From assembly GCA_013239625.1 (NCBI GenBank), contig MU056960.1, forward strand, positions 7,618,642-7,682,641: DNA of 64,000 bases, written 5' to 3'. Shown here piece by piece: positions 5,944-38,150 of the stretch. The position numbers and the translations under genes were made by a program. Numbering within the stretch: position 1 is the stretch's first letter; the number at the start of each line of letters is the position of its first letter. The notes under the pieces are model-generated. The model saw nothing but the letters and a program-made list of their open reading frames with translations, did not search any database and had not been told where the DNA came from. This DNA is from Lama guanicoe. Lineage: Eukaryota.

Positions 5944-8900
5944 TCAGCCCCAGACCTCAATGAGGTCCCCGGATTCCATGCCCAGATCAGCTGGCAGCTC
6001 CTTGCCTGAAAGCTTTGTCCCATCAAAGAAGAAAGAGAGCTTGTGGCCCGAGAGTCCCATGGCCTCCTCGTAGCGGGACATGAGGGTCTTGAGAGGAGAA
6101 TCCTGGAGGGAGAGGAAAAAAATGGATGCAAGAATTTGAAAAGAGGGGCTGAGGAGAACTTATAGGGATGGACGGAGGACTTGGGACAGGGAGGACAAGG
6201 GATCACAGAGGGAAGGCGAGTAATCAAAGAAGCCAGCACAGCCGGTTCCTCCCTAGGTTCCTCACTAGGGAGCTGGGCCACAGAGCCCAGGGCTGGGACG
6301 TCGGCTCTGGATCAGGCAGGTTCTCCAAGGCCAGTCTCTCCCACCAGTGGAGGCATGTATGACCATGAGGAAGCCAGCCTGGGCTCTGGGGTGAGTGTCA
6401 TCAGAGCTGGGGGCCAGGCGTTCCCATTGAACTGGACGTGTGACCTTAGACAAGAGCTATGGGTTGACTGTGTCCCTACTGCACCCAAAAGATTACTGGT
6501 GGTCCTCACCCCTGGTAAACGTGAATGTGACCTTGTTTGGAAGATGTGATCAGGTTAAGATGAGGTCATATGTGATGGGACACACAGTGAGCACTAAGGC
6601 AATTGGACCGGTGCCCTCGTATGAAGAGAAAACAGACATACAGGGAGACACCCGGGAGAACGTCATGTGATAAAAGAGGTGGAGATTGGAGTGATGCCAT
6701 GAGCTAAGGGACTCCAAGGTTGTCAGCCACCACCAGAAGCTGAGAGGGAGCAGGGAAGGATTCTACCCAGAGTCTCAGAGGGAGCATGACCCTGCCGACA
6801 ACTTGACTTCGGACTTCGAGTCTCCAAAACTGGGAGAGAATACATTTCTATTGTTTGAAGCCACCCAGTCTGTCGTATTTTGTTACAGCAGCCCTGGGAA
6901 ACTAATACAGCAAGTTACTCCACTTCTATGGATATTGGACTCCTTATCTGTTAAATGAGGGTAACTGCAGTGCATTCCCACGTGAGATTGTTGTGAAATT
7001 CACTAACACCCTGAATGTAACCATCCTTAGCACAAGGACTGTCCACTTCTCTTTGAAGTGTGCCTGTTAGTTTGATGGGCTTTATTGGTTACTGTCCAAG
7101 GGTGATTTCCACTCTAACCAGGAGAAGGAGTTAGGAGACCAGAGCCAAGGTTCCCAGCAGAAGAGGGAGGGAAGCTGAACCCTGGCCTTTTCCCACCATC
7201 TAGGATGGGCGGGAACCCAAGACCACAGAAAGTGGTGACTCCACCCTCCACCAACTGACGAGAGAGACAGCGGAGGGCATGGGCAGGGGTACCGAGAGCC
7301 ACCTCTCCCACTCACTCGAGGCAGCGAGACTTCCAGCATCTGGTGCTTCTCCTTCCCCTGCACTCGCAGCTGGAGCAGTTGGGACGTCTCCGCAGCCTCC
7401 GGAGAACTTGCCAGCACCACACAATCTGCAAGAGGCAGGATGAGGAAGCCAGGCCTGAGCGTGGGTTGGAAGCAGGGCCCCCTTCGGGCCTCTCCCCACA
7501 GCCCCTCCCTGTGGAAAAGCCTCCTCAAGCCTCCCTGCCTTCCTCTCACCAATGATGTCAGCCACTCCAAGCTTTAGGGTCCTGGGGGTGGCGGTAGGGG
7601 ACAGCTCTGTTTCTCCAAAGAGCAAGAGGATCCTGCTTGGGGACACCCCGAGACGGGCGGCCATGTGGTCCACCACACTCTGTAGGGGCTCCGACTGGGA
7701 GGGGGACAAGAAGCAAAGGAAGCCTTCCTGCCTGTGTGCTCCCTGCCAATCCTTGCCCAGTTTCTGTCCTTAACCACTCTCTGAACTCCTCAGCTGTGAG
7801 GTCCACCAGATCGACCTGGCAAGGCACAGAATAAAATCATGTCAATGAAGGGTTCAGGCAAGTGACACAAAGAAACGAAGCAGCCATGGGTTAGGAGAAG
7901 AAAGGGAGCAGTGGGGACTGCAGCAAATCAGAACCGGATATGCCTCATCTAAACAGGCCAGCTGTTCCGAAGCTCCAGCTGATTGGTACCACATGGGAAC
8001 AGCAGCCAGGTACTGCATCTTCCTGTTTAAGAGAAACTGGAAATCTTGATCTTGGTATGAAATTGCCCATTGCAAAGGTTGGCTGTGAACGCCTATGTTT
8101 TAAAAGCACCCTACAGTGCAACAGATGTGCTGTTGATCAGGCCACAGGCTGCTAGTGTGCAAGCTCTGGCTTAGTTGCTTGCCCAATGCACTAAATGGTC
8201 ATTTCTGTTATCAATTCTTGGTTTAGAATTGGGGTCATCCCTACAAAAACAGGAGTCTTCACCAGGAAGCCAGGGGAGCTTGGAAGGAGCGAGTGACATC
8301 TGGGGGTCCAATGCAGTAAAAGCAAGCACGAGAGAGAAACACAGGGTCTAAGAGAAGGAAAGAGGGAGGGACACATCCCTGGGGAGGCCCCACCAAGCAA
8401 AGCTTCTTAGGATGTTTAAATGGAGCCTTGAGAAATGGGGGGGGGGGCGGGACTCTAAAAATAAATACATAAGTAAACCTAATTACCACCCCTCAAAAAA
8501 AATTAAAAAAAAAAAAGGGTGGGAAGTTTCCCAGAAAGAGAGGGGAGGAGGAGGAAAAAATCTGGACAAAGGGAACAGTGAGCACAAAGGTGGGGGCACT
8601 GAGAGCGCAGGGCAGCTCCAGACGACATGGTGGGCAAAGGAAGACATGGTCCCTTCTGCCCGGACACCACTGTCTCTCCACACGCATCTCCTGGGAACCC
8701 TTCTCTCAGACCCGTCAGGCACTTACCATTCTGATGGACAATCTGACCAGGTCAGCCCGGCACCGGATTTTGAGCCGCAAGACTCGGGGGTTCTCTGGGA
8801 GAGTGGGCCCCTCTACCAGGACCACTTCATCCTCTTGGCTCAGGTGCTCCTGGCCCTGGGGCTGCTTGGGACTCAGAGAGGAACGGAGGTCTTGGAGGCG

Positions 8901-11900
8901 CTTGTTCACTTCCCTGGAGTGCAGAAAGGACTTGGGGTCAGCCAGGGTGGACCCACCTCCATATTGTCCCTTTCCACTCCAGCCCAGAGCCCCCTGCCCT
9001 TGGCACCTTAACTTCTGGAGTGCCCGAGTATGCTTTCTGCTTTTGGTTCGTGGTGGAGGTGGGGGCAAAGGAGAGGTGTCCTCAACCCTGCAGACAAAAG
9101 AGGAACAGGATGGAGAACAAGGTGAGACCCCAGCCCCACACCTCTCTTCATGGGCTATAGACCCCTGGGGACCAGAGAGGGACCTGGAGAATCAGAAGGG
9201 AGCACCTTCTGGTAATATCCATCTTATTGGAAGGTAGGGGAAGGTAAGGACAGGAGAAATCTGAGTCATCATTTTTATATTTATATGACCCAAATATGAG
9301 GGAGGAGGATTCCTAACTTTTAAGAAAAGTGACTTCCCAGGTCAATGTCTGATAACATCCAAAAGACACCAAGCACTTATTATATGCCAACGGTTCACTC
9401 TAATCTACTCAAAATTTCTGACATGGGTACCACTATTATCCCCATTTTATAGAAGAGGAAATTGATGTACAGAGAGGATGGTTAAGAGCCAGCTGGCAGG
9501 ATCTGAACCACAGGGAGGTCTTGAGCTACTTCCTTCACCCCTGCATCATGACCATCTTAGACAAAAAGCTGAAACACTTCCCCTGCGGGGTCCTGAGGGT
9601 CTGCTGTCCTCCACAGGTGGGGACCACTTCTTTTCCCAAGAGCTTCATTCCTCACTGGCGCCTCCAGACTCCTTCTATCCCTTCTCCTTACCCTTTCAGG
9701 AGCTAGCCAAGGGTCCTGCCCCCCTCAGCCTACCCCACCAACTCCCTTTCTGCTCCGATAGCCCCAGTGCCCTTGCCTCACTCACGGTAACACCTTTTTC
9801 TTCTCTTCTCCATCCTTACTCCTCAGCTTCTTCTTCCAGGGAGACTCTGGACATGGGGAATCCTCAGCACGGGGACTGCTGGAATCTGCTATGTCCGGCT
9901 CTGGGGACGGTCAGGGGGCCGGGGGGGAGGAGTGTTAAGGGTTAGCCAAGAGAGGGCGGTGGAAGGCCAAGGAGAGACAAGTCAGGGGCTTCAGAAGGTT
10001 CTGAGGAAGGAGGAGACTAAGGGGCCCCCAGACACACATGACCACACAATAATACTAGGGAAGGGCTCCAGGGACATGAGTCAAAAGGGGAATGCCTAAC
10101 TCGGAGACAAGGATGCCTAAGTCGGAGAAAAGGATGAGCTGGAGTCTGACATAGAGCAGGAGAGTCCGAGCCTTGCACTAAGGCAGGAGACAACGTGCAG
10201 ACTGTCGGAAGGTGGCCCACTCCAACTGAAGCAGCGCTCTGCTCAGTTGTGATCACCTGCACCCCACAAATGAACAAAACTGAGCACACAACCCAGAAAG
10301 TATATATTTACTTAATATACACACATACCCTACTTACCATACATGTACATATTAGTATATATGGTATAAAACATACATTACAACAAATGTTGTCAAAGGA
10401 TGATTTTTTTTAAAAATATTTCTCTTATTTTCTTTCCATTCTCAAGTTGATGGGCACAGAGAGAATATGTGAGTCTTGGGGTGGTGGGGGAGGGGATGAG
10501 GTAAAGAGGTAAGTACAGGCCTGCTAAGCTCATGTTTCTCAAATTTCATCCATGTGAGCATCATTATCATTTTGACATATCTCTGTATTATTTAATACCT
10601 TTCTTTAAATTACTAATTGTTGGGGAGGGTATAGCTCAAGTGGTAGAGCATGTGCTTAGCATGCCTGAGGTCCTGGGTTCATTTCCCAGAACCTCCTCCA
10701 AAAATAAATAAGTAAATCTAATTACCTCCCCACAAATAAAATAAATAAATAAATAAATAACTCATTGTTTTTGTTTGTTTGGGGGGGGTGGTAATTAGGT
10801 TTACTTATTTATTTATTTTTAGAGGAGGTACTGGGGATTGAACCCAGGACCTCATGCATGCTAAGCACGCACTGTACCACTTGAGCTATACCCCCACCTC
10901 CAAATTACTCATTTTAACTTAAATGTCTAACAAAAGGAAACCAGGTACTATTCTAGAATATAGCTCTTTTCCATTTGCTTGCCACAATAAAAGATCATCA
11001 TTAACCATAAAAATAAATACTGTGATTACACAACACTGATAATAAATCCTAGATCAGTGTTCTCAACCAGAGGCAATTTTGCCTCCCTGGGAACATGTGG
11101 CAATGTCTGGAGACAATTTCGGTTATCACAATGAGAGGGGGAGGGGGTTGGGGTGTGATCCTGGCATCTGGTGGGTAGATGTCAGTATGCTGCTGAACAT
11201 CCCACAATGCACAGGACAGCCCCACACAAAGAATTATCCAGTCCAAACGTCAGTAGCACTGAGGCTGAGGAACTCTGTCCTAGTAGCTGCCAGAGGCCTG
11301 AGATTCTGCATTTCTGATAAGCTCCTGGGGATGCTCAGCACTCCTGGGCCCACATTTTAAGTAGCAAGGACAGAGGTATCCTTGTAATTCTATGTTCCAG
11401 GTACTGTACTAAACCATATATGTAGCCCACGAGGGGGCTTTCTATATATTCTACTTGTCATCAAAACCCTCTGACCTAGGTCCATAACTTAGCCCCATTT
11501 TGCTGATGAGGAAATTGAAACATTGTGAGATTAATTCACCCAAGGTCACACAGCTACTAAGGGGTGGAACTGGGACTCCAAACCCAGGCCAGCTAGTTCC
11601 TGAATCAGCTCTTAATCGTCCTGCCATACTCCCTCATGGTACAGAAGTCTTAGTCCAAGGTCTGCGTTTTCCCACTGGATCACTTCTTTGTTAGACTTGA
11701 TTCCTATTCACTGCCCTTGAATGGTTTGCAAAAGTCACATCACTCGGGGAGGACAAAGACTGGGCAGCCCTGATAAGATTCAAAGAACATCCTGTTGGCT
11801 CCAGAGTGTTCCCAAGAAACTTGCTGCAGATATAACAAGATGTTACAGGTTCTCAACACCTCCTCCTCCCCAGCCTCTAGGATTACAGAATCAAAATCTC

Positions 11901-19319: not shown

Positions 19320-24789
<5,470 letters not shown>

Positions 24790-24851
24790 GGTGATCAGAC
24801 TCCCTGGGGTGCCCAGCCTTGCGCGCGGGGGATGCTGGGGTAGGCGGGAAC

Positions 24852-24940
24852 CTGGTGGGCACTGAACCATGGGCGTCTGTGGGGGCGGGTGGGCAGTCCC
24901 CCTGAGAGGAAGGGGTGGTCACGCCTCAGGCGCTTTCTCC
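24852..24940 (-). promoter_or_regulatory. CD19 proximal promoter: PAX5/BSAP site, GC box, PyG/EBF box, second PAX5-like site
   Basis: Minus strand CAGACGCCCATGGTTCAGTGCCCACCAG (24879-24852) matches the human BSAP site as I recall it (CAGACACCCATGGTTGAGTGCCCTCCAG). Also CCGCCCCC (24888-24881), TTCCTCTCAGGGGGACT (24911-24895) and CTGAGGCGTGACCACC (~24929-24914). Confidence 0.85.
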
Positions 24941-25739
24941 ATGCACCCCTCCAGAACCACAAAACTCGCCTCCTCCCTGCTACACTTTTATTTTCATCCC
25001 AGCATTTGTCATGTGAAATGATCTTATTTGCATGTCTACTTACTTGCTGGCTTTCTGTTCCCCTCATTTAACTGTAAGCCCCTTGCGGCAGAGACTTCAC
25101 CCTGTTCATGACTGTACACACAGTGCCCTGGAACAGTGGTTGGCACATTGTAGGCACCCAAGAAATCTTTGTTGAATGAGTGTCCTCTCTCCTCCTCCTA
25201 CATGCCCCCGCCACCCTTCAACCTCAGGCTCTGAATTCACTTCCCTTCACACATGGCCTCTTCATTCATTCAACTGACATTTCCTAGGCTTTCTTCCATC
25301 TCCATACTCCCAGCCTATCACACATACGGCAGACCTGAGTCTGAATCCTCCACCTCCACCATTTGGCTAAATGTCTTCATCTCTCTTAGCCTTAGTTTCT
25401 TTCTCTGTAAACTGGGGATAAGAATAGTACTATCAAAATAGCTTCTGTGGAGATTAAACAGGGCAATACATGTTCGGCATTTTCCACCCAGCACAGCACA
25501 CAGCAAGATCTGAGAGACAGCATCCATGAATGGCTACTGGCTCAAGCCATTCTGCTGCTCCAGCTGAATGAAGCCTCCTCAAAGGGCAGAGTGGTGCCTG
25601 AGATCACACATTGGGCTGGGGGTACAACCGGGCACTAGAATCCAGGAGTCTTAACTCTTAAAGTTAACTCTGTTCTTTTGCCAAACACCCCCTATCTCTC
25701 TCTCTCTTCGCCTCTCCCTGCCTCTGCCTGTGAATCTCT

Positions 25740-25910
25740 GTGTTACTGCTGCCATCACTCAGGGAAAAGGGCCAGGGACCCAGGAGACCTGCTCTCTCAG
25801 TTGCTGGTTCCCAGGCCAGTCTCACTGAGCTGTGACTTCCTGTTTGCCTCGGGCAAACCCCAGGGGACCCCTCCCCCCAGCTGGCAGGGCCCTCACTTCT
25901 CTTTGGTCAG
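25740..25910. promoter_or_regulatory. Candidate CD19 upstream B-cell enhancer
   Basis: Within ~70 bp: ETS ACTTCCTGT (25835-43), EBF-like CCCCAGGGGA (25858-67), E-box CAGCTG (25878-83), PU.1-like CACTTCTCTTT (25894-904). Non-repetitive island among MIR/L2 remnants. Confidence 0.55.
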
Positions 25911-26519
25911 GTTGGGTTGGCTGGGAGGGGGTAGAGTGGGGCATCAGGGGAATGGAACGGGCAAGGGGGCAGGACCCCATCTGCCTTTCACTCAACAAAA
26001 TCTCTCCAATCCCGTTCACCAGTTTCCCAGCTGCCTCACATGCTGAGTCTTCTTGCTGGAGTGTGTCAGCCCCCAACTTAGAACATTGCAACCACTTTCA
26101 TCTATGTCAAAGTAAACACTCCATACCATGGCCTCCAAGGGCCTGAGGGAAGCTGCCCCTGACGACATTTCCCACCTCAGCCCTCTGCCACTCTGCCCCA
26201 GCTCAGGGCCTTTGCACTTGCTGCTCTTCTTCCTGGATCTCTCTACTCGGCTCTTCGCTCCACTGGCTCCTTGCTGTGGCTCAAGCCTCAGTTCAAATGT
26301 TACTTCCTCAGAGAGTCCTTCCCTGACCCACCAGGTACTTTGAATCTTATACCCCTGTTTTATTTCCCTCCTAGCATTTGCCCCCATCCTAAAGTCGGCC
26401 TGCTTACTTGTTAGTTTGTCTCCTGCCCTAGAATATTCACTCTGCTACAACAGGACTCCTTACTATCTGGCTCGCTGACATCCAGTAGGTGCTCAATAAG
26501 TATTTGTCATACAAAGGAA

Positions 26520-26778
26520 AGAAGTTAGTTATGGTTACCCAAGGGGAAAGGGGAGGGGGATAAATTAGGAGTATGGGATTAACAGATACAAACATACATA
26601 AAATAGATAAGCAACAAGGATTTACTGTATAACACGGGGAACTATATTTAATATCTTATAATAACCTGTAATGGAAAATAATCTGAAAAAACCCATATAT
26701 ATATGGGCTATATATATATATATATATAAAATCACTTTGCCGTATACCTGAAACTAATACAACACGGTAAATCAACTA
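26520..26778 (+). mobile_element. L1 3'-end fragment, left part (interrupted by the ERV)
   Basis: Typical laurasiatherian L1 3'UTR (...AACAAGGATTTACTGTATA...AATCACTTTGC..TACCTGAAACTAA..GTAAATCAACTA); continues as TACATCAATTTAAAAAAA at 35638-35660. Confidence 0.85.
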
Positions 26779-27324
26779 TGTTGGGGGACATGGCGGGCAG
26801 TGCAAGGGCAGTAAAAGAATTTACCAGAAACATAGAACGTTTAAGAGACAAAGGAGAGTTTAATGGATACGCTGCTCTAGGCAACAGTGGGCCACACAGA
26901 CGAGAGGTGTGAGCGCCGAGGGTGAAGGTGCAGGGTCTTTTATTGGGGGAAGGGGCTGTGAACACAAGGGGCGGGTGGGCTGCATGATCAGTTTGTGCAC
27001 AGCTACCTGATTGGTTGTAAGACTTGTCAGGGGCTACTCTGAGGAAAGGACTTTACGGCTCTCATAAGGGCAGATGCGCCGTGAGGCCTGTCTGCCTAGG
27101 GTGTTGTGAGACTGGCCATTTTCTGGGGGTGGTTAGTTTTGTTAAGATAAACACACGTCAAGGGAGATGTTTTCATCTTGCAGAAATGCAGGTATGTGGA
27201 GGGTCCTGAAGTGGGGGGTGGGGGTTAAGGGTACCAGTGGGCCCCAGGCACATGGAGAGCCCAGGAGTGGGGGTTTTATGGACTTCAGAGTGGCTTTAGA
27301 GAACGCCAGCCAGCCGGCTCCACA
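26779..27324 (-). mobile_element. ERV 3' LTR (546 bp)
   Basis: Direct repeat of 35082-35632. On the minus strand: CCAAT (~27014-27010), AATAAAA TATA-equivalent (~26945-26938), ATTAAA poly(A)-like (~26864-26859). Preceded by PPT AGGGGGAAA (27333-27325). Confidence 0.95.
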
Positions 27325-27439
27325 TTTCCCCCTGACAGATTGGCAGTGACCAATCTTTGGAACATGGGTGGAGGTCTCTTTCTTCTGGAACTACTTCTTG
27401 CTGAACATGAGTGTCAAGCTGTCCCTAACTATCGTGCTA

Positions 27440-29028
27440 ATCTGTCCAGGGTGTGGGGCCAAGATGGTCCTCCCCAAGAATCTGACTGCCTAAGGGGCAG
27501 CCTGAAAATAACCCCCTTTGACATCCAAGGGCTGCATCCCTTTGGTAAGGGCCATGGCATCTCTGGCTTGCGAGAGACGTCTGTTTTTGTTTCTTTGGAG
27601 CTTGGACCTCAAAGAGAGAGACAATTGTTTTTATAAGAGAGGGGAACAACATAAAGAATAAATGCATACAAGATAAATAGCCAATCTCAAGAAAAGGATG
27701 GAGAGGGGAAATTTTAAAATCCCTGTGAAAAAGGACCTTATTCCCTCTGGAATCCAAAAAAAACTATTAGAGCATGTCAGAAAATTGTTTGTTAACCTCT
27801 TTGCTGTGAGCATTGCTATCCCCTAGAGTACTTATGTCACTCTGTAGTTGAGTGAGGAGCAAAGTGAAATTACCACACACCAGGGAGATGGGGGCAGCTT
27901 TCAGTATGTATTATTGTACATGTGCCTGCCTGGGAAGCTGTGAGGATATCAAAAGCCATGTGATTTTGCAAAATCGTTCTCCTCATTAAGGTCATTTCTG
28001 TATTGACCAAAAATATACTTTCCCTGGTATCATTTCGTGCTTGTTGTATAGATTTTGTTAAGGCTTCCACATGCAGAATTACATATTCCAGGACCACTGG
28101 AGGGAAAATAAAAATGTATTAGGTGATCGTATCATTTAAAAACAGATCGAGACCACCGGGCATGCATAAAAGGAAAATCTGCAATTTTTGTACTTTGTAG
28201 GGTGGAATATCTGTGTTCCTGTGCCCAGGGGAAGCCCAAAGTGCATCAAGCAATCCATCCTGGGGGCAACCATGGCCAGAGGTTAATGCCACAGATCCAG
28301 TGAGTTCCACTGGGGGCTGGCCATATGGTGGGTCTGTATTGCCACGGTTTAAATTGCCATTTGGTGGCCAGATAATCAGTAGCCTATAAAATTATACGAT
28401 GAACACACTATTTTAAAAGAATGCATCCCAGATGTCGAGCGGAGTTAGCCACTGAGACAAGGAATGATTTTTTTTGTTCCCAACACTGGGGAGTTTTTAT
28501 GCTCAATCTGCCGTATTTAGGCATTAACCAGTTAGCTCCATCCCATAGTTGGTTGAAGCCTTCAGCTACTCATGAGGACTTTGAACATCTCCAGACCTTC
28601 TCTGGTGTGGCATTTTAGGTAACTTATCCATTCCCTGAATTGTGGCCGTTCAAGAGAATGAAAAATTGTGGCTTGGCAAATTAGTGGTGTTTTCCATAGG
28701 CCATTTTTGATGGATCATAGTTAGAAATTTCACATAGGAATTCAAAATCTTTACAGGGCGGAGGGTTTAAGGGGTCATGACGAGTTGTGTTTTCATTCAT
28801 AGCAAATATCAATTGACGAATAAGTGTGGAAAACTCTTTCCAATCAGATCCTTGTAGGGGTGAAACCCACCATGGCAACCCGGAGAATGCAGACACCAGG
28901 TCGGCCACAAACCCAGCAGTTAGAGTAGTTAAATGTACTAGCATATGTGAAGGCCCATTCTAAGAAACTGTTTCCTGTAACAGTAGAGGTAAAGTGCAGA
29001 GGAGAGTCAGAACAAAGAGGAGTGTCAT
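27440..29028 (-). pseudogene. env: ERV env remnant (gamma-type), disrupted
   Basis: Signal peptide MTLLFVLTLLC (ATG 29028), frameshifted into NSFLEWAFTYAST..NCWVC (CWVC 28918-28907), GLPWWVSPLQGSDW, furin-like RWSR|SVF (28158-28147), ISD LQNHMAFDILTASQAGTC, degenerate CX6CC (CTIIHTESC). Confidence 0.9.
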
Positions 29029-29384
29029 TTTTAGTACTCTAAATAGAGATTAATCTCATCAGATGTAAAATTGGTTGAACTGCCTTGAAGATACAGATCA
29101 AAAATGAAACCCCTGAACTGAGTTGCAGAGAAAGAGAGAAGATCTTCGGCGGGGATTGTAGTTAATTCTGAAAGAAGAATTTCATAAAAGACATCAAGTC
29201 AGGAACTCATGGGCAGCTAGAGCAAGGGTGAGAAATGAAGGGATTAGCGCGCTGGGACAACAGCAAACAGGAAGTATAGTGAGGCAGAGCGCTGGTAAGA
29301 AGATGTGGGTAAGAAGGCAAGGTCCTCAGCTGGCTGGCATCAGCCCAGCAGGTGGCACGCATTAAGCTAGGAATTGGGACTAGT

Positions 29385-32300
29385 GTCACCGATTTGCGTT
29401 TGAACGGTAGGCGGAGAGCCTCCAGAGGCTCACAGCTGGACGAGGTATTTGTTGGTGATGCCTCACCCATTTTTAATGCCGGCGGCGGGGCGGCAACCTT
29501 TTACACGGGACAGGTGTATCCAAGGAGTGAGCCTGTCTAGTTTCACTTCATTGCGGTGGGAGTGGTCAGAAGTACCTGCTAAGGCCACATCCAAACTGGC
29601 TGAAATGCCTGCTTGTCCTGTGGAAGAGTTCTGAGATAAACCCAGTCCCTGGGAACGAGTTTTTGGATGGGAGTTTCCCTGAAAATTGGGATCAGGCTTT
29701 GGATTTATATGATTGTGATATTCATGAAGAGCCTTTACAATTTGACTTAAAGTTGTCACGTATTGAGCAAGGTAGTGACCCTCAGCATCTGTTAGTAAAT
29801 CTGTTTGGAGGAAAGGCCTGCCATAAAGGAGCTCAAAAGGGCTTAAATGAGATTCAGCCTTTGGAGCAATTTGTGTTCGTAACAAAGCAGTACAGAGAAG
29901 GGTGGGCTGGGACTGCTGAGTTTCTTGCATAACCTTTGTTAGGATTCTTTTTATTGTTTGGTTGGCTCTTTCCACTTTACCAAAGGACTGGGAGTGCCAT
30001 GCGGCAGGTAAGTGATGTTCAATTTGTAGGGCTTCTGCCACCCCTTAAGTTATTTGAGAAACAAAATTTGGGTGATTGTCTGATTGGAAGGAGCAGGGTA
30101 GGCCGAAACAGGGAGTAATACGATCCAGCAAAGCAGTAGTTACTTCTGATGCCCTATTTTTGTGGGGAAGGCTTCAATCCATCCTGTGAAAGTCTCTATA
30201 AATACCAGGAGAACATGGGGAGTATAGCTTATTGGTAGAGTGAATGCCTAGCATGCATGAGGTCCTGGGTTCAATTCCTAGTACCTCCATTAAATAAATA
30301 AATAAACCTAAGTACCTCCCCCCATAAAAAAAATACCAGGAGATATTTTAGGGTCTTACATGGAGGCATATGGGTGAAATCTATTTGCCATTCCTCTTCT
30401 GGTACCTCTCCAAGGGTACCTTTCCTCTGAACTGGGTGGAGAGGTGGTGGCCTAACATTTCCTTCATTGTTGACCTGACAAGTTGGACGTGCATGGGAGA
30501 TGTCCCGTAGGGTTTGAAAAATTCCCTTTCCCACAAAAAGAGGTTGTATTAAGTCCTGTAGGTTCTTTGCCCCTAAGTGGGTAGATTGGTGGAGATTTTG
30601 TAACACTTTCCATTATAAGGCCCTCAGGAGTAATAATTATACACTTGGGGCTTTTAAGCCATTTTTCTCCAAGATTGAAGGTAAACCCCACTTTTGTTGC
30701 CTCTTGAATTTCTCTCTCAGTATACTGAGGAGCCATTAGTGTAAAAGTTGGAAATAAAGTTGCCTGTATAGGAAGTCCTGCTGCCTCTCTGGACTGTCTG
30801 CTTTGTGATTCCCTTGGGAAATCTCATCAGTTACCCTTTGATGTGCTTGACAGAGAATCACTGCCACCTTTGTGGGAAGATAATGGCTTCTAACAAGTTT
30901 AAGATTTCTGAAGCATGTCTAATGGGTGTATTTTGTGCTGTGAGAAGACCTCTTTCTTGCCAAATGGTGGCATGTGCATGAACAACATGAAAGGCATACG
31001 ATGAATCAGTGTAAATATTTAACTTCATTCCTGGCCCAAACGTAAAGCTCGAGTGAGAGCTATGAGTTTAGCCTTTTAAGCAGAAGTGGAGCCTCCCGGA
31101 AGGGGCCCTGACTCTATACCTTTGGTAAGACTTACAATGGCATAACCAGACAATCAAACCCCATTTAACATAAAACTACTGCCATCAGTAAACCAGGTGT
31201 CGTCAGGGTCCTGGAGCAGTTTATCCTGAAAGTCTGGTCTAGCCGCACAAGTTAAATCTAGTATCTCAAGGCCTGAGTGTTTTATAGAGGAGTTACAATT
31301 TGGATTAGGAAGGAAAGAGGCGGGGTTAAGAGTTTGACACAGTTTAATACTAAGTACAGGAGTCTCTAAGAGTAGCGTTTGATATTTGGTGATCTAACCG
31401 TCAGAGACCCAGTGAGAAGCCTTTGAATTTAGAATATCCATTACTTGGTGGGCCGTATAGGTAGTTAATGGTTGTCCCAGAGTCAATTTGGATGCCTCTT
31501 CGACTAACAGGGCCACAGAGGCTAGAGCTCTGAGGCAAGGGGGCCATCCCTGGGACACAGGGTCCAAATTTTTAGAGAGGTATGCTTCAGGTTGCTGGGT
31601 GGGTCCCAATGCTTGTTTAAGAACTCCCGGGGTGACATGTACAAACAGGATACAGGGCTTTTGTAGATTAGGCAAAGCTAAAGCTGGGGCGCTGTAAGAG
31701 TCTGTTTGAGAATTTGCAATGCTTGGTCCATCTCAGGGGTCCATTCTAATGGCTCATTTTCTGGATCCCATAAAGCTTCATAGAGCGGCTTTGCTATGAG
31801 GCCAAATTGGGGTATCCAGGTCCTACGAAATCTTGCCATTCCCAGGAAAGATCTGAGTTTTGTTTAGTCGCTGGAGTCCCCATGTCTAAAATTAGACTTT
31901 TTCTCTGGACTGGCGAACTCTTCATTCCTAGGTTTCTATGAGGCCCAGGAACTGTACCTTCTGAGTTGAAATTTGGGCCTTAGAGAGAAACTTTATACCC
32001 ACATGAGGTTAGTTTCTGTCATATCATTATAGTGAGAAGTCAGAAGAATCTTTATGAGGACTATATATTAGGAGGTCATCTACATACTGAAGTGAGGCAC
32101 CACCCGGAGAAAACTAAGGTAGAGAGATCTTTAGCTAGAGCTAAAGATCCGAATAAATGGGGACTGTCTCTAAATCCCTGGGGCAGAACTGTCCAAGTTA
32201 ACTGTTGGGATACTTGGGTTTCTAAATCCTGCCATTAGAAAGCAAAAATAAATTGAGAGTCAGAGTGTACAGAGATGCAGAAGAAAGCATCCTTAAGGTC

Positions 32301-32740
32301 TAACATGGAGTACCAAGAGGCCTCAGCAGGAATTTGTCCCAGGAATATAAAATGGTTTGGCACAATGGGATGTATGGGTATCACAGCCTCGTTGATGGCC
32401 CTGATATCTTGTACCATCCTGGATGTCCCATCAGCCTTTTTCACAACTAGGATCGGGGTGTTGCATGGAGAGTTACAAGAACGCAACAATCCAGTTGCAA
32501 GGAATTTGGTGATTAAGGGCTGGAGGCCCCTCCAGGCCTTGGGCTTAGGAGGGTATTGAGATTTTCAAGGTAAAAAGGTAGGATCTTTTCATTGAATTCG
32601 TACAGGTTTTGCAAAAAGGGACCTCCCTGGGGTTGTTATGTCCCAGACCTCCAGAGACTTGTTGGTAAATAGCAAAAGGTATCTCTTGTGGGCCCTGAGC
32701 CAGGGCTAATAAAGGACAGACACACTCTGGCAAGTGGAGG
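29385..32740 (-). pseudogene. pol: ERV pol remnant (RT, RNase H, integrase) with multiple stops and frameshifts
   Basis: SPCNTPILVVKK, LDLKDAFFCI, TWTVLPQGFRDSP, LQYVDDL (YVDD 32086-32075), AYLSKNLDPVSQGWPPCLRALA, WFTDGSS, IYTDS, LHQSTHLG, WQIDFTHMP, GKVERANQTIK, SPFELLYGRPF, WIHLSRVK, SCEPLEALRL. Confidence 0.95.
30217..30330 (+). mobile_element. tRNA-Ala-derived SINE (vic-1-like) inserted in the ERV integrase
   Basis: GGGGAGTATAGCT..GGTAGAG..GGTCCTGGGTTCAATTCCTAGTACCTCCA head, A-rich tail, 13-bp TSD AAATACCAGGAGA (30200-30212 / 30331-30343). Removing it restores integrase KYLLVF|IETFTGWIEAFPT. Confidence 0.93.
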
Positions 32741-33040
32741 CTGGCCTAAAGCTTAGTCATAATAGTTCTCCCTAATAAGGGGGTGAGGCATTCAGGGAGA
32801 ACAAGAAAGGCATGAGTAAAAGTAAATTTTTCAAGAGTACAAACTAACAGTGAGGTCAAACAGCCAGTTTGTGGATGGCCATCTATCCTGGTAAGGAGGA
32901 TCCAGGACCGAAGTGTTGGTCCAGAAAAACTAATTAAGGTGGAGTAAGTGGCTCCAATATCAACTAGAAATTGGACGAACTTTCCTGCCTATCCAAGGTC
33001 TCCCAAGGCTCTGCCATTGAGATGGAAAGCATGGGAGCCT
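32740..33040 (-). pseudogene. pro: ERV aspartic protease remnant
   Basis: Minus strand VQFLVDIGATYSTLISFSGP (active-site DTG degenerated to DIG, ~32976-32917) and FTHAFLVLPECLTPLLGR. Confidence 0.85.
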
Positions 33041-33049
33041 GCACGGCCT

Positions 33050-34495
33050 CTGGGCTCTGTCTGTCCCAGAAGAGTCATCTTCCCCCTCGCTGTTATCTGG
33101 CTCCTCATAATCAAGGAACAGAGTTGGGGGCATCTGTTGGTTTCTTACAGGTTTAGCCCCAGGAGCGCCCTGGGGCAGGGTGTCATCCTTGGCACAGGTT
33201 CTTGGCTCTGGGATGGCCCTCCTGCAAGAGGGAGAGAGGGACATCCCGCCTTCAGTGTCCCTTTTCCTTGCAGACAGGGCAGGGCCCCCAAGGAGCTCTA
33301 GAGTCTCCTCGCAGATGTGCAGGCTGTTGGCAGTGGAAACAGATGGGGGCTTGTCCTGGAGGAGGCTCCCTCTGGGAAATGCTGGCTCTCGTTACCCGGC
33401 TCAGGTGGTGCTGGCAGGACACTAGCAGTGACGGCGGCCATGTATTTATCTTGCCGTTTGTCCTTTTCTTTTTCTTTTCTCTCCTGTTCAACCTTTGATT
33501 TCTCCTCCCTGTTGTTAAAGACCTTAAAGGCCATATCTAATAGGACAGGAAAGGGAGTTTGTGGGCCCTGTTCAAGCTTTTGAAGTTTTTGTCTAATGTC
33601 TGGGGAGGCCTGACTAATGAAATGAACTGCTGGTATCGCAAGGCCCTCTGCACTTTCAGGATCAAGATTAGCATATTTTCACACGGCCTCTGCCAGCCTG
33701 GAGTGGAAGAGGGCTGGATTTTTGTCAGGTGTCTGAGTAATCTCTCTCGGTTTGGTATAATTAATAGAGTTATTATGGCCTTTTTCATTCTTTCTAATAA
33801 ACAAGTAGTCATATGATTACAATATGTTTTCCAGGGGGTCCCTTTCCTGATATGTCCAGTGGGGATCGGAGTCAGGGACTGATTCTTTTCCAGACCTAGA
33901 TGTGTCTTCAGTGTCAGGATTTTGGATGGCTCGAGTGTGAACCTCGTCAGCCCAGCACTGAGCCAAGGACCAAATGCGAGCTTTTTCTTCCTGAGTACAA
34001 GTGGAGAAAATGACAAATATATCCTGCCAGGTCAAATCAAAGACTATAGTGAGAGCTTGAAATTCTTGTATAAAGCGAGAAGGGTCCTGGCTAAAAGAGC
34101 CCAACCTGGCTTGGAAAGGGACATGGACCTGAATGGTACCTGCCTCGCCATTAGCAACCTCACGAAGGGTCAGCACGTTATCTTGTTTTGAGACTTCTGA
34201 GATATTCATCTTAACTGGGGGTGTTGGTTCTGTCGTGTCTTAAATACCTGATCTAGTATGTGGTGGGGGAAGGGGGCTTGATACGGAGGGGGAACTGAGA
34301 ATGGGGATGGGCATTCAGTGGTCGCTGGACCCAGGGAGAGAGAGACTGGGGAAGGAGAGGAAGCTGTTGGAGGAGTCCCAGGGCTGGGCCGGTTGGAGGA
34401 GGAGACAATGAAGGACATAGAGGAGACTGGTTGTTGTTAGGAACCCGAGAAAGGAGGGGGTCATCTAGGATATCAAGTTGGTTGTTAGATATCAA
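33050..34495 (-). pseudogene. gag: ERV gag remnant (PPPY late domain, capsid, two zinc knuckles), frameshifted
   Basis: ORF fragments: SVPPPYQ; LREVANGEAGTIQVHVPF..LGSFSQDPSRFIQEFQALTIVFDLTWQD; MAFKVFNNREE; CFHCQQPAH and CPVCKEKGH*. Confidence 0.9.
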
Positions 34496-35061
34496 AGAAG
34501 GTGGGTTTCCTAAAAATCAGGTGAGAGCAAGAAGAGGAAAGTTTGTATTGGGTCAGAGTGTAGGTCTCATGGGAAGGGCTTTCCAGTACTTTCCACTCGA
34601 CCAGCCTTACCCTATTACGTGTCTGGGGCTGACCAGGAGACAGGGTCCTGGGTGTCTCAATGCACCAGATGACCAGTTCTTATGTGTGCTTTCCCCGACA
34701 AGACACAAAGTCCCTTTGACCCAGGCATGGGATATGTAGTAGCAAGGAGTAAAGGAGTAGAGGTATTTAGAAAAGACATTTCCTGTGTGCATTCATGGCT
34801 GAGGGCCAGGGGGTCAGTCCTGCCTGTCAGACCGAGTTTTAGAGCCCGCTGAGAGTCGCCCAGCCAAAGTTCCTCAATTCTCTCGGCAAGACTTAGGGCA
34901 AGTCCCAAACGCCAGGGAGTGGCAGAAAGGAAAGTGTGAGAGAGGAAAGGAAAGCAAAAAGGGAAAAGGGAAGCCCGCCTTGACGATCTGGCCTCCAGAA
35001 TGGAGCTTCCAATCAAGCCAGAGGGAGACCCCCGTAAGGAGGGGAGAGAGGAGAAAGAAAG

Positions 35062-35079
35062 TCCCCATGCGGGCCGTCA
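35062..35079 (-). other. Primer-binding site, tRNA-Ile(AAU)-like
   Basis: Minus strand TGACGGCCCGCATGGGGA, 2 nt after the 5' LTR; 14/18 match to TGGTGGCCCGTACGGGGA (complement of the tRNA-Ile AAU 3' end). Confidence 0.7.
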
Positions 35080-35081
35080 AA

Positions 35082-35632
35082 TGTTGGGGGACACGGCAGG
35101 CAGTTTCATGGGCAGTAAAAGAATTTACCAGAGACAAAAGACAGTTTAAGAAACAAAGGAAAAGTTTAATAGATACGCTGCTCTAGGCAACAGCAGGACA
35201 CACAGACGAGAGGTGTGAGCGCTGAGGGGTGAAGGTGCAGGGTCTTTTATTGGGTGGGAGGGGCTGTGAACACAAGGGGCAGGTGGGCTGCATGATCAGT
35301 TTGTGCACAGCTACCTGATTGGTTGTAAGACTTGTCAGGGGCTACTCTGAGGAAAGGACTTTACGGCTCTCATAAGGGCAGATGCGCCGTGAGGCCTGTC
35401 TGCCTAGGGTGTTGTGAGACTGGCCATTTTCTGGGGGTGGTTAGTTTTGTTAAGATAAACACACGTCAAGGGAGATGTTTTCATCTTGCAGAAATGCAGG
35501 TATGTGGAGGGTCCTGAAGTGGGGGGTGGGGGTTAAGGGTGCCAGTGGGCCCCAGGCACATGGAGAGCCCAGGAGTGGGGGTTCTATGGACTTCGGAGTA
35601 GCTTTAGAGAACGCCGGCCAGCCGGCTCCACA
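35082..35632 (-). mobile_element. ERV 5' LTR (551 bp)
   Basis: Direct repeat of 26779-27324; followed on the minus strand by the PBS. Confidence 0.95.
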
Positions 35633-35660
35633 AACTATACATCAATTTAAAAAAAAAAAG
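35633..35660 (+). mobile_element. L1 3'-end fragment, right part with poly(A)
   Basis: Continuation of the L1 tail after the TSD: AACTA TACATCAATTT A(n). Confidence 0.8.
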
Positions 35661-37299: not shown

Positions 37300-38150
37300 A
37301 GGAGGGGTGGGGACCTGGAAGTTTGACTGACTACGCGGGGACCCAGACCCAGGCGCCCAGAAAAGTGAAGTGGACCCAGCAGCCCTGCCCCGAGGGACGC
37401 TCCACGAGGCGGAGGAACAGGGAGGCCAGACCACAGTTCGCTGTAATGTGAGCCAGGCTTCGGCGGAAGGGCTGCCAGGGACTGACCAAGAGGCCGGCTC
37501 CGGGGCTCGGGAGAGACCGCGAGAACCTCGCCTTCCTTAGGTTGAGGCCGGCGGGTGTCCTGAGGAAGTGTAATTTGAGCAGAGCTCCCAGGTCACGTGG
37601 GGACGCCAGAAAGCCTTTGATGAAAAAACTTGTTCATGGTTTGAAGGACAGGCGTTCTTCTCGAACAGCGCTACCCAGTGAAGAAGACGGGGAGGGGCGG
37701 GGCCTGAGACCGAGGCCAGACGTCGACTCGGAAATCTCCGGCCGAGGCTTGGCCATCTCTCCAACTCCGGCCTCAGCCTCGAGCCCAGGACCCATCCGGA
37801 AACAGCCGAGCGGATCCGGAAACGGCCGAGAGGACCCGGAAGCGGTGAGCGCCGTCACCAGGGAGTGCGGGAACCCGCCGTTTGCGCGGAGGCGATGGCG
37901 GCAGCTGCGCCGGCGGCCGCGGGCGAGGATGACCGGCGGAGGCAGCCGGGAGCCGGTACGTGACGGTGCGTCCATGCACGCGAGGGGCTGCGAGACCGGA
38001 GGCGGGGCCGAGCTCGGCACTGGTGGCTGGGGGATGGTGAGGGGAGTCTGGAAAAAGGGGCGGGACCAAGCCCCGGCAAAGAGCCGGAGGGGGCGTGGTC
38101 TTTCGATTCCAGGGGGTGGGCCAGTGGCAGGTTAGAGGTGGGGCCCTCTG
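37300..38150 (+). promoter_or_regulatory. RABEP2 CpG-island promoter
   Basis: CpG-rich; three CCGGAA ETS/GABP motifs (37796-37841), GC box GGGGCGGGG (~37694), GTCACGTG E-box (37592-37599). Confidence 0.85.

What the first reader, a model, noticed from the sequence alone, without database searches (positions are those of the whole stretch)
24789..35637. Near-full-length ERV sits in sense orientation just upstream of CD19, between the divergent CD19 and RABEP2 promoters
Seen: an 8.85-kb provirus with both LTRs and TSD, transcribed in the same direction as CD19. Its 3' LTR ends ~2.0 kb from the CD19 ATG and ~0.9 kb from a B-cell TF motif cluster; its 5' LTR is ~2.3 kb from the RABEP2 ATG. Both LTRs retain CCAAT, an AATAAAA TATA-equivalent and an ATTAAA. 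Known: sense-oriented class I LTRs often act as alternative promoters, and full-length ERVs attract KRAB-ZFP/TRIM28 silencing. Inference: this lineage-specific insertion could give LTR-initiated CD19 transcripts, put the LTR under B-cell enhancer control, or insulate/silence at the CD19-RABEP2 boundary. I do not recall an equivalent provirus at the human locus.
Basis: partly seen in the sequence, partly recalled or inferred. Interest (0 to 1): 0.75.

Follow-up and report, generated by a model that had tools for sequence, protein, structure and literature searches.

The report
Decayed retrovirus upstream of camelid CD19
An 8.85-kb endogenous retrovirus with all its genes broken sits 2 kb upstream of the B-cell gene CD19 in an alpaca-like camelid genome; it is likely an old, silent passenger, and nothing found here shows that it drives CD19.

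Summary
The structure is real. A class I (gamma-like) provirus lies at 26,779-35,632 on the minus strand, with two LTRs, a 5-bp target duplication and an isoleucine primer site, inside an L1 remnant between divergent CD19 and RABEP2. It is dead as a virus: pol has at least 9 frame changes, 13 stops and a SINE. It is older than its 96% LTR match suggests. A 259-bp stretch is identical in both LTRs while the rest differs by 8%, which fits 4.7% decay in pol. Such stretches are common in this genome and reported in camelids. The functional claim is unsupported. Orientation says nothing between divergent genes, the promoter words are family defaults, CD19's promoter and enhancer-like cluster lie downstream and intact, and no camelid CD19 protein model starts in the LTR. 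No reads were laid on the locus, so LTR-driven CD19 transcripts remain untested (about 12%); a plausible splice route exists. Verdict: an ordinary new member of a known kind, with low to moderate interest.

The parts
35082..35632 (-). 5' LTR, 551 bp; CCAAT 35,318-35,322, AATAAA 35,246-35,251 (TATA-like by position, inferred), ATTAAA 35,165-35,170
26779..27324 (-). 3' LTR, 546 bp; CCAAT 27,010-27,014, AATAAA 26,939-26,944, ATTAAA 26,859-26,864
35282..35540 (-). 259-bp stretch of the 5' LTR (U3) identical to the 3' LTR
   Evidence: 0 of 200,000 permutations reach it
26974..27232 (-). the same 259-bp identical stretch in the 3' LTR
26774..26778 (+). target-site duplication AACTA, left copy
35633..35637 (+). 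target-site duplication AACTA, right copy
35062..35079 (-). primer binding site, 14 of 18 match to tRNA-Ile(AAU)
33252..34239 (-). gag remnant in pieces (Gag_p30 hits below the curated cut-off; decayed Cys-His motifs at the end)
32749..32988 (-). protease remnant (RVP)
29453..32651 (-). pol remnant (RT, RNase H, integrase), at least 9-10 frame changes and 13-16 stops in the aligned parts
30200..30343 (+). tRNA-derived SINE inserted in integrase, with 13-bp TSD; same family as 7 other copies in the window
27631..29038 (-). env remnant in pieces; CWVC motif in SU, immunosuppressive-domain-like stretch in TM nearest to syncytin-1 among solved structures
27325..27333 (-). polypurine tract before the 3' LTR
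26529..26778 (+). host L1 3'-end remnant, left part (6,883 candidate copies, best 84%); L1 label recalled
35638..35660 (+). rest of the same L1 end with its poly(A) tail
   Evidence: sequence shown directly
25835..25883 (.). ETS / EBF-like / E-box cluster, likely the native CD19 upstream enhancer (inferred)
   Evidence: mouse enhancer via PMC3444840
24702..24789 (-). CD19 exon 1 coding part; an in-frame upstream ATG at 24,870 and an acceptor-like site at 24,901 precede it
37895..37897 (+). RABEP2 start codon in a CpG island (o/e 0.79)

Best explanation
This is a complete but coding-dead class I endogenous retrovirus in an L1 remnant between CD19 and RABEP2, and it is likely an old, fixed, methylated passenger that leaves CD19 under its own promoter and enhancer. 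Shown: structure, broken genes, insertion site, patchy LTR identity. Inferred: integration roughly 8-31 My ago depending on the rate (about 20 My at 2.2e-9 per site per year), so probably before the camel-alpaca split; decay without selection on the genes; later copying of 259 bp of U3 from one LTR to the other by gene conversion (about 65%; assembly collapse about 30%), which halves the apparent age; silencing by germline methylation. It landed 0.9 kb beyond the enhancer-like cluster, pushed RABEP2 8.85 kb further away and was tolerated.
For: Pol: 9-10 frame changes and 13-16 stops against two unbroken homologues; SINE in integrase. Window-specific changes at codon positions 1+2: 24 of 513 columns, 4.7% (CI 3.0-6.9), matching 8.2% LTR-pair distance outside the identical stretch. 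Nearest pol relative 79%, other LTR copies 74-83%. CpG o/e 0.35-0.38 in the LTRs and 0.27 inside, against 0.79 at RABEP2. Motif survival is ordinary: CCAAT 4 of 10, AATAAA 6 of 10, ATTAAA 6 of 10, all three 3 of 10 other copies. Identical runs of 108-356 bp in 5 of 18 other loci with a long direct repeat; putative intra-element conversion in 1,787 of 6,877 alpaca LTR elements (PMC8605555). 14 of 24 listed runs, five organism labels, hold 0.86-0.94 of the words of 24,100-28,100, above the 0.81 that flank plus a solo LTR could give.
Against: The LTRs keep more CpG (12-13) than 10 other copies (2-9), which fits a younger age but also lower methylation. The identical stretch includes the CCAAT box. 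A donor-like word in U5 (26,824) and a strong acceptor-like site 112 nt before the CD19 ATG (24,901) give a route to full-length CD19. Two runs recorded as RNA hold 0.28 and 0.14 of the words and which part they hold is unknown. The stop count is higher than 4.7% decay predicts (P about 0.006 with a rough model), so the age may be greater. Human HERV-E.CD5, a similar layout and similar LTR age, is a working B-cell promoter (PMC4379568).
Confidence: 0.72

Rival explanations
1. One LTR is a minor alternative promoter of CD19, as HERV-E is for human CD5. Transcription would start about 25-30 nt after AATAAA, use the U5 donor (26,824 or 35,128) or the leader donor (34,610) and splice to the acceptor at 24,901 (full-length CD19) or to exon 2 (leader lost), helped by the enhancer-like cluster 0.9 kb away.
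For: Sense orientation, intact motif set, short distance. Donor and acceptor candidates exist and the one LTR ATG before the donor is out of frame with CD19 via 24,901. Precedent in PMC4379568.
Against: The U5 donor word is a family feature (core kept in 6 of 10 copies), scores only 78 on a recalled table, and sites as good occur 2.3 times per kb. ATTAAA lies about 55 nt after the predicted start, upstream of that donor. No B-cell motif from the scanned set in the 3' LTR. No LTR-derived part in 11 camelid CD19 protein models. None of the RNA runs listed is labelled as lymphoid tissue.
Confidence: 0.12
2. The provirus acts as a silenced block (KRAB-ZFP/TRIM28, H3K9me3) or as a spacer that shields CD19 from the RABEP2 CpG-island promoter and so changes expression levels.
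For: It more than triples the distance between the two start codons (13.1 kb with, 4.3 kb without). Internal CpG loss shows past methylation. TRIM28 silencing of ERVs is established knowledge (recalled).
Against: Both flanks keep promoter-like CpG content (RABEP2 0.79, CD19 promoter 0.47). Three poly(A) hexamers on the minus strand already lie between RABEP2 and the 5' LTR, so no terminator is needed. No data on chromatin were available.
Confidence: 0.1
3. On the separate question of the 259-bp identical stretch: it is an assembly artefact, one LTR's letters having been used for both copies.
For: Zero differences in 259 bp beside 8% elsewhere; a near-equal run (269 bp) in another provirus of the same assembly; fragmented assembly of 55,231 contigs.
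Against: Run lengths in other loci vary from 108 to 356 bp. Copies 8% apart are not expected to merge in an assembly graph (inference). LTR conversion tracts of 14-450 bp are documented in humans, including between the two LTRs of one element (PMC4921805).
Confidence: 0.3
4. The insertion is young (4-10 My), specific to South American camelids and perhaps polymorphic, as the overall 96% LTR match suggests.
For: Overall LTR distance 4.2%. At the 5e-9 rate used in PMC8605555 even the corrected age is 8-9 My. It is the least decayed of four related copies compared.
Against: 13 or more stops are very unlikely at 2% decay (P about 2e-6, rough model). 4.7% decay per copy exceeds the roughly 2.5% per lineage suggested by 3 changes in 27 upstream codons between this window and dromedary (very small sample). 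All 14 large DNA runs listed hold internal sequence, though they were picked as best holders.
Confidence: 0.2

Closest known systems
Class I (gamma-like) ERVs; ERV1 of camelids (PMC8605555)
   Same: RT nearest to MLV (E 4e-27, against 3e-9 foamy and 5e-9 HERV-K), Gag p30, gamma-type TM nearest to syncytin-1, short TSD, patchy LTR identity as reported for about a quarter of alpaca LTR elements.
   Different: No paper found describes this locus or family; supergroup (HERVW9, HERVHF, HERVIPADP-like) not resolved.
HERV-E.CD5 (human chr11; PMC4379568)
   Same: Two-LTR class I provirus, sense, a few kb upstream of a B-cell surface gene, LTR distance about 8%.
   Different: HERV-E.CD5 has shown fusion transcripts and an unmethylated U3 in B cells; here neither is shown. 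Different family (Ile primer), host and gene.
Intra-element LTR gene conversion (PMC4921805, PMC8605555)
   Same: A few hundred bp of identity between otherwise diverged LTRs, inside the 14-450 bp range reported.
   Different: Here not yet told apart from assembly collapse.
ARTenvV provirus (PMC9604959)
   Same: Ancient gamma-like ERV with remnants in camelids.
   Different: ARTenvV lies at CREM-CCNY and keeps an env frame in other artiodactyls; this element lies at CD19 and has no open env. Sequence kinship not tested.

Membership tests
Class I (gamma-like) ERV | Paired TG...CA LTRs with short TSD, PBS and polypurine tract | tested here: met
Class I (gamma-like) ERV | RT closer to gammaretroviruses than to beta or spuma | tested here: met
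   MLV 98 bits, foamy 40, HERV-K 40
Class I (gamma-like) ERV | gag-pro-pol-env order with gamma-type capsid | tested here: met
   (Gag_p30 below curated cut-off, E 5e-5)
Class I (gamma-like) ERV | Gamma-type env: CXXC in SU, immunosuppressive domain and CX6CC in TM | tested here: inconclusive
   CWVC and an ISD-like stretch are present; the CX6CC motif is decayed; no Pfam env hit
Class I (gamma-like) ERV | No dUTPase in pro or pol | tested here: inconclusive
   no dUTPase hit among 23 provirus fragments scanned, but the fragments do not cover all of pol
HERVIPADP / HERV-I-like group | Ile primer site and Pol clustering with HERVIP | tested here: inconclusive
   PBS matches tRNA-Ile 14 of 18; PBS is an unstable marker (PMC4724089); no named reference sequences for a tree
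HERVW9 or HERVHF supergroup | Pol phylogeny; two zinc fingers in NC | not testable with these tools
   two decayed Cys-His motifs seen; homologues found were unnamed; likeness of gag and LTR layout is recalled only
Exapted LTR promoter (HERV-E.CD5 type) | Sense orientation upstream of the gene with intact core motifs | tested here: met
Exapted LTR promoter (HERV-E.CD5 type) | LTR-initiated transcript spliced into the host gene | not tested
   no reads laid on the locus; protein models show no LTR part, which does not test untranslated exons
Exapted LTR promoter (HERV-E.CD5 type) | Unmethylated, open LTR in the expressing cell | not testable with these tools
   no chromatin data; CpG o/e 0.35-0.38
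Exapted LTR promoter (HERV-E.CD5 type) | Motifs kept better than in neutral family copies | tested here: not met
   all three words kept in 3 of 10 other copies; small sample of best-scoring copies

The most novel reading that the evidence does not exclude
Camelids have a retroviral first exon for CD19: the 3' LTR, next to the B-cell enhancer, starts a transcript that splices from U5 (26,824) to the acceptor at 24,901 and makes full-length CD19, and recent gene conversion keeps U3 of the two LTRs identical. That would be a camelid counterpart of HERV-E.CD5 in the lineage that makes heavy-chain antibodies.
Probability: 0.1. Interest if true: 0.55.

Novelty: new member of a known kind. Interest (0 to 1): 0.22.

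Why it matters
As a passenger it is a useful dated marker: a provirus inside an L1 and carrying a SINE, whose LTR clock reads half the age its genes show, a warning for LTR dating in camelids. It also shows that the CD19 promoter and enhancer-like cluster work within 2 kb and tolerate a 9-kb insertion just beyond. If an LTR did start CD19 transcripts, it would be a species-specific control of the central B-cell co-receptor in animals used for nanobody work, testable with one RT-PCR.

Tried and rejected
Overall LTR distance as a clock (4.2%, 4-14 My): rejected because the differences are clustered. Orientation as evidence: rejected, any insertion between divergent genes is sense to one. The 27-residue N-terminal extension of dromedary CD19 models: maps to 24,790-24,870, contiguous with exon 1, not to the provirus. 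The 1,196-aa wild camel model is a fusion with downstream genes, not with the provirus. Homologue search with the longest integrase piece found one bat protein at 41% and no near-identical camel product: no evidence on presence in camels. Rfam found only the SINE as tRNA. The bacterial promoter scan is not relevant to a mammal. The first motif count and the donor look-up in other copies used unaligned windows and were replaced by the aligned count. Earlier findings of the scan: nothing returned. Paper searches: 'CD19 promoter' + 'endogenous retrovir' 0 papers; CD19 + RABEP2 + LTR 0 papers; camel or alpaca ERV searches listed none on this locus by title or abstract start. The library lacks most subscription journals, and no supplements were read; the element lists of PMC8605555 may include this provirus.
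Full report
Observation. Pfam finds Gag_p30, protease, RT, RNase H and integrase pieces in order. The TM piece is nearest to syncytin-1 among solved structures (E 2e-4) and RT is nearest to MLV. The primer site matches tRNA-Ile(AAU) genes of the same genome at 14 of 18 positions. CD19 runs on the minus strand from 24,789 and carries residues of the alpaca models rather than the camel ones; llama, vicuna or guanaco cannot be excluded. RABEP2 starts at 37,895 on the plus strand.

Insertion site. The element splits the 3' end of an abundant repeat (6,883 candidates, best copies 79-84%) whose poly(A) tail follows the right TSD. I recall this as a cetartiodactyl L1 end; if so, no orthologous provirus can exist in humans. 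That was not tested on a human sequence. An ETS, EBF-like and E-box cluster at 25,835-25,883 is the only one in the window (recalled patterns, chosen after the fact). In mouse an upstream Cd19 enhancer binds E2A, EBF and Pax5 (PMC3444840, passages; the primary paper was not read). The cluster and the promoter both lie between the provirus and CD19, so the insertion separates neither from the gene.

Decay. Against two unbroken homologues from unnamed sources, pol shows 9-10 frame changes and 13-16 stops over about 1,000 aligned codons (some stops may come from alignments running past a break). A tRNA-derived SINE with a perfect 13-bp TSD sits in integrase. No gag, pol or env frame is longer than 193 codons.

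Age. The LTRs differ at 22 of 546 aligned sites (4.0%), but positions 93-351 are identical while the rest differs by 7.7% (K2P 8.2%); 0 of 200,000 permutations give such a run. An independent count agrees with the larger figure: at pol columns where three related copies agree, the window copy differs at 24 of 513 first and second codon positions (4.7%, CI 3.0-6.9). At 5e-9 per year (PMC8605555, passages) that is 8-9 My, at a recalled 2.2e-9 it is 19-21 My, at 1.5e-9 27-31 My. Old and New World camels split about 16.3 My ago (PMC12127551, passage). Three changes in 27 upstream codons between window and dromedary hint at about 2.5% per lineage, so the element is probably older than the split, but this is weak. 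The family is old: the 39 other LTR places scored are 74-83% identical, the nearest pol 79%.

The identical stretch. Of 23 other provirus-bearing loci examined, 18 had a direct repeat of 200 bp or more at provirus-like spacing (not all checked as LTR pairs; some are probably L1). Six of the 18 had an identical run with permutation P < 0.01 and five had runs of 108-356 bp; among the 4 with hits to this LTR at both ends, 1 had such a run. Putative intra-element conversion was reported for 1,787 of 6,877 alpaca LTR elements (PMC8605555, passages), and human LTR tracts reach 14-450 bp (PMC4921805, passages). Conversion is the likelier cause; assembly collapse stays open because no reads were laid. 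The comparison with the commonest letter of 10 other copies did not separate the two.

Presence in other animals. For 24,100-28,100, 14 of 24 listed runs (DNA by guess, five organism labels, six studies) hold 0.86-0.94 of the sampled words. Flank alone is 67% of the stretch and flank plus one LTR 81%, so these samples likely carry internal sequence too. They were chosen as best holders, one may be the source sample, and heterozygotes are not excluded. Presence in camels was not shown.

Function. Against a promoter role: orientation is uninformative between divergent genes; the three motifs survive together in 3 of 10 other copies; the 3' LTR has none of the B-cell motifs scanned except one RUNX-like word, and an unspliced read-through would cross 43 ATGs and 4 poly(A) hexamers; none of 11 camelid CD19 protein models mapped has a part from the provirus (11 of the 19 cluster members); CpG o/e is 0.27-0.38 over the provirus. 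For it: the LTRs keep more CpG than 10 other copies, a donor-like word in U5 and an acceptor-like site at 24,901 would give full-length CD19 (recalled scoring table; equal donors occur 2.3 per kb), and HERV-E.CD5, with the same layout and 7.8% LTR distance, is a B-cell promoter that splices into CD5 exon 2 (PMC4379568, passages).

Comparison and verdict. The element meets the class I tests that could be run; its supergroup is unresolved, and PBS is a poor marker (PMC4724089, passages and section 9). It is not the ARTenvV locus (PMC9604959, abstract and passages). Survival as a full-length copy is expected once LTRs have diverged (PMC4905674, passages). Four searches found no paper on this locus. 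Best reading: an old, coding-dead, likely silent passenger with partly homogenised LTRs (0.72). LTR-driven CD19 transcripts remain possible (0.12) and are cheap to test. Interest 0.22.

Noticed in passing
window 24,790-24,901 (minus strand): An in-frame ATG 27 codons before the CD19 start is used by dromedary gene models; a strong acceptor-like site (24,901) and a strong donor-like site (25,043) lie just upstream and could define a short non-LTR upstream exon.
   Followed up: partly
L027+L028 (G000:C5323, about 23,704,700-23,713,760): A related, equally broken provirus whose LTRs differ by about 15% apart from a 269-bp identical run.
   Followed up: partly
L049+L050, L061+L062, L067+L068, L071+L072: Other class I loci with long identical runs (356, 187, 135, 108 bp) in their direct repeats; L071+L072 has three LTR-like copies, suggesting two proviruses in tandem.
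   Followed up: no
window 30,200-30,343: The SINE in integrase is followed by a second short inverted piece of SINE-like sequence inside the same 13-bp TSD.
   Followed up: no
CD19 exon 2, window 24,250-24,300: Camelid, pig and dolphin CD19 carry a few extra residues in the first Ig domain (GTLKEPQG) that human CD19 lacks.
   Followed up: no
G000: The genome holds at least 150 RT-like places of varied age, so this provirus is one of many; several pairs have identical scores, which may be duplicated contigs.
   Followed up: no
window 5,956-9,895 (minus strand): Exons matching the NFATC2IP-like part of a fused wild camel gene model lie downstream of CD19 (gene name recalled).
   Followed up: no
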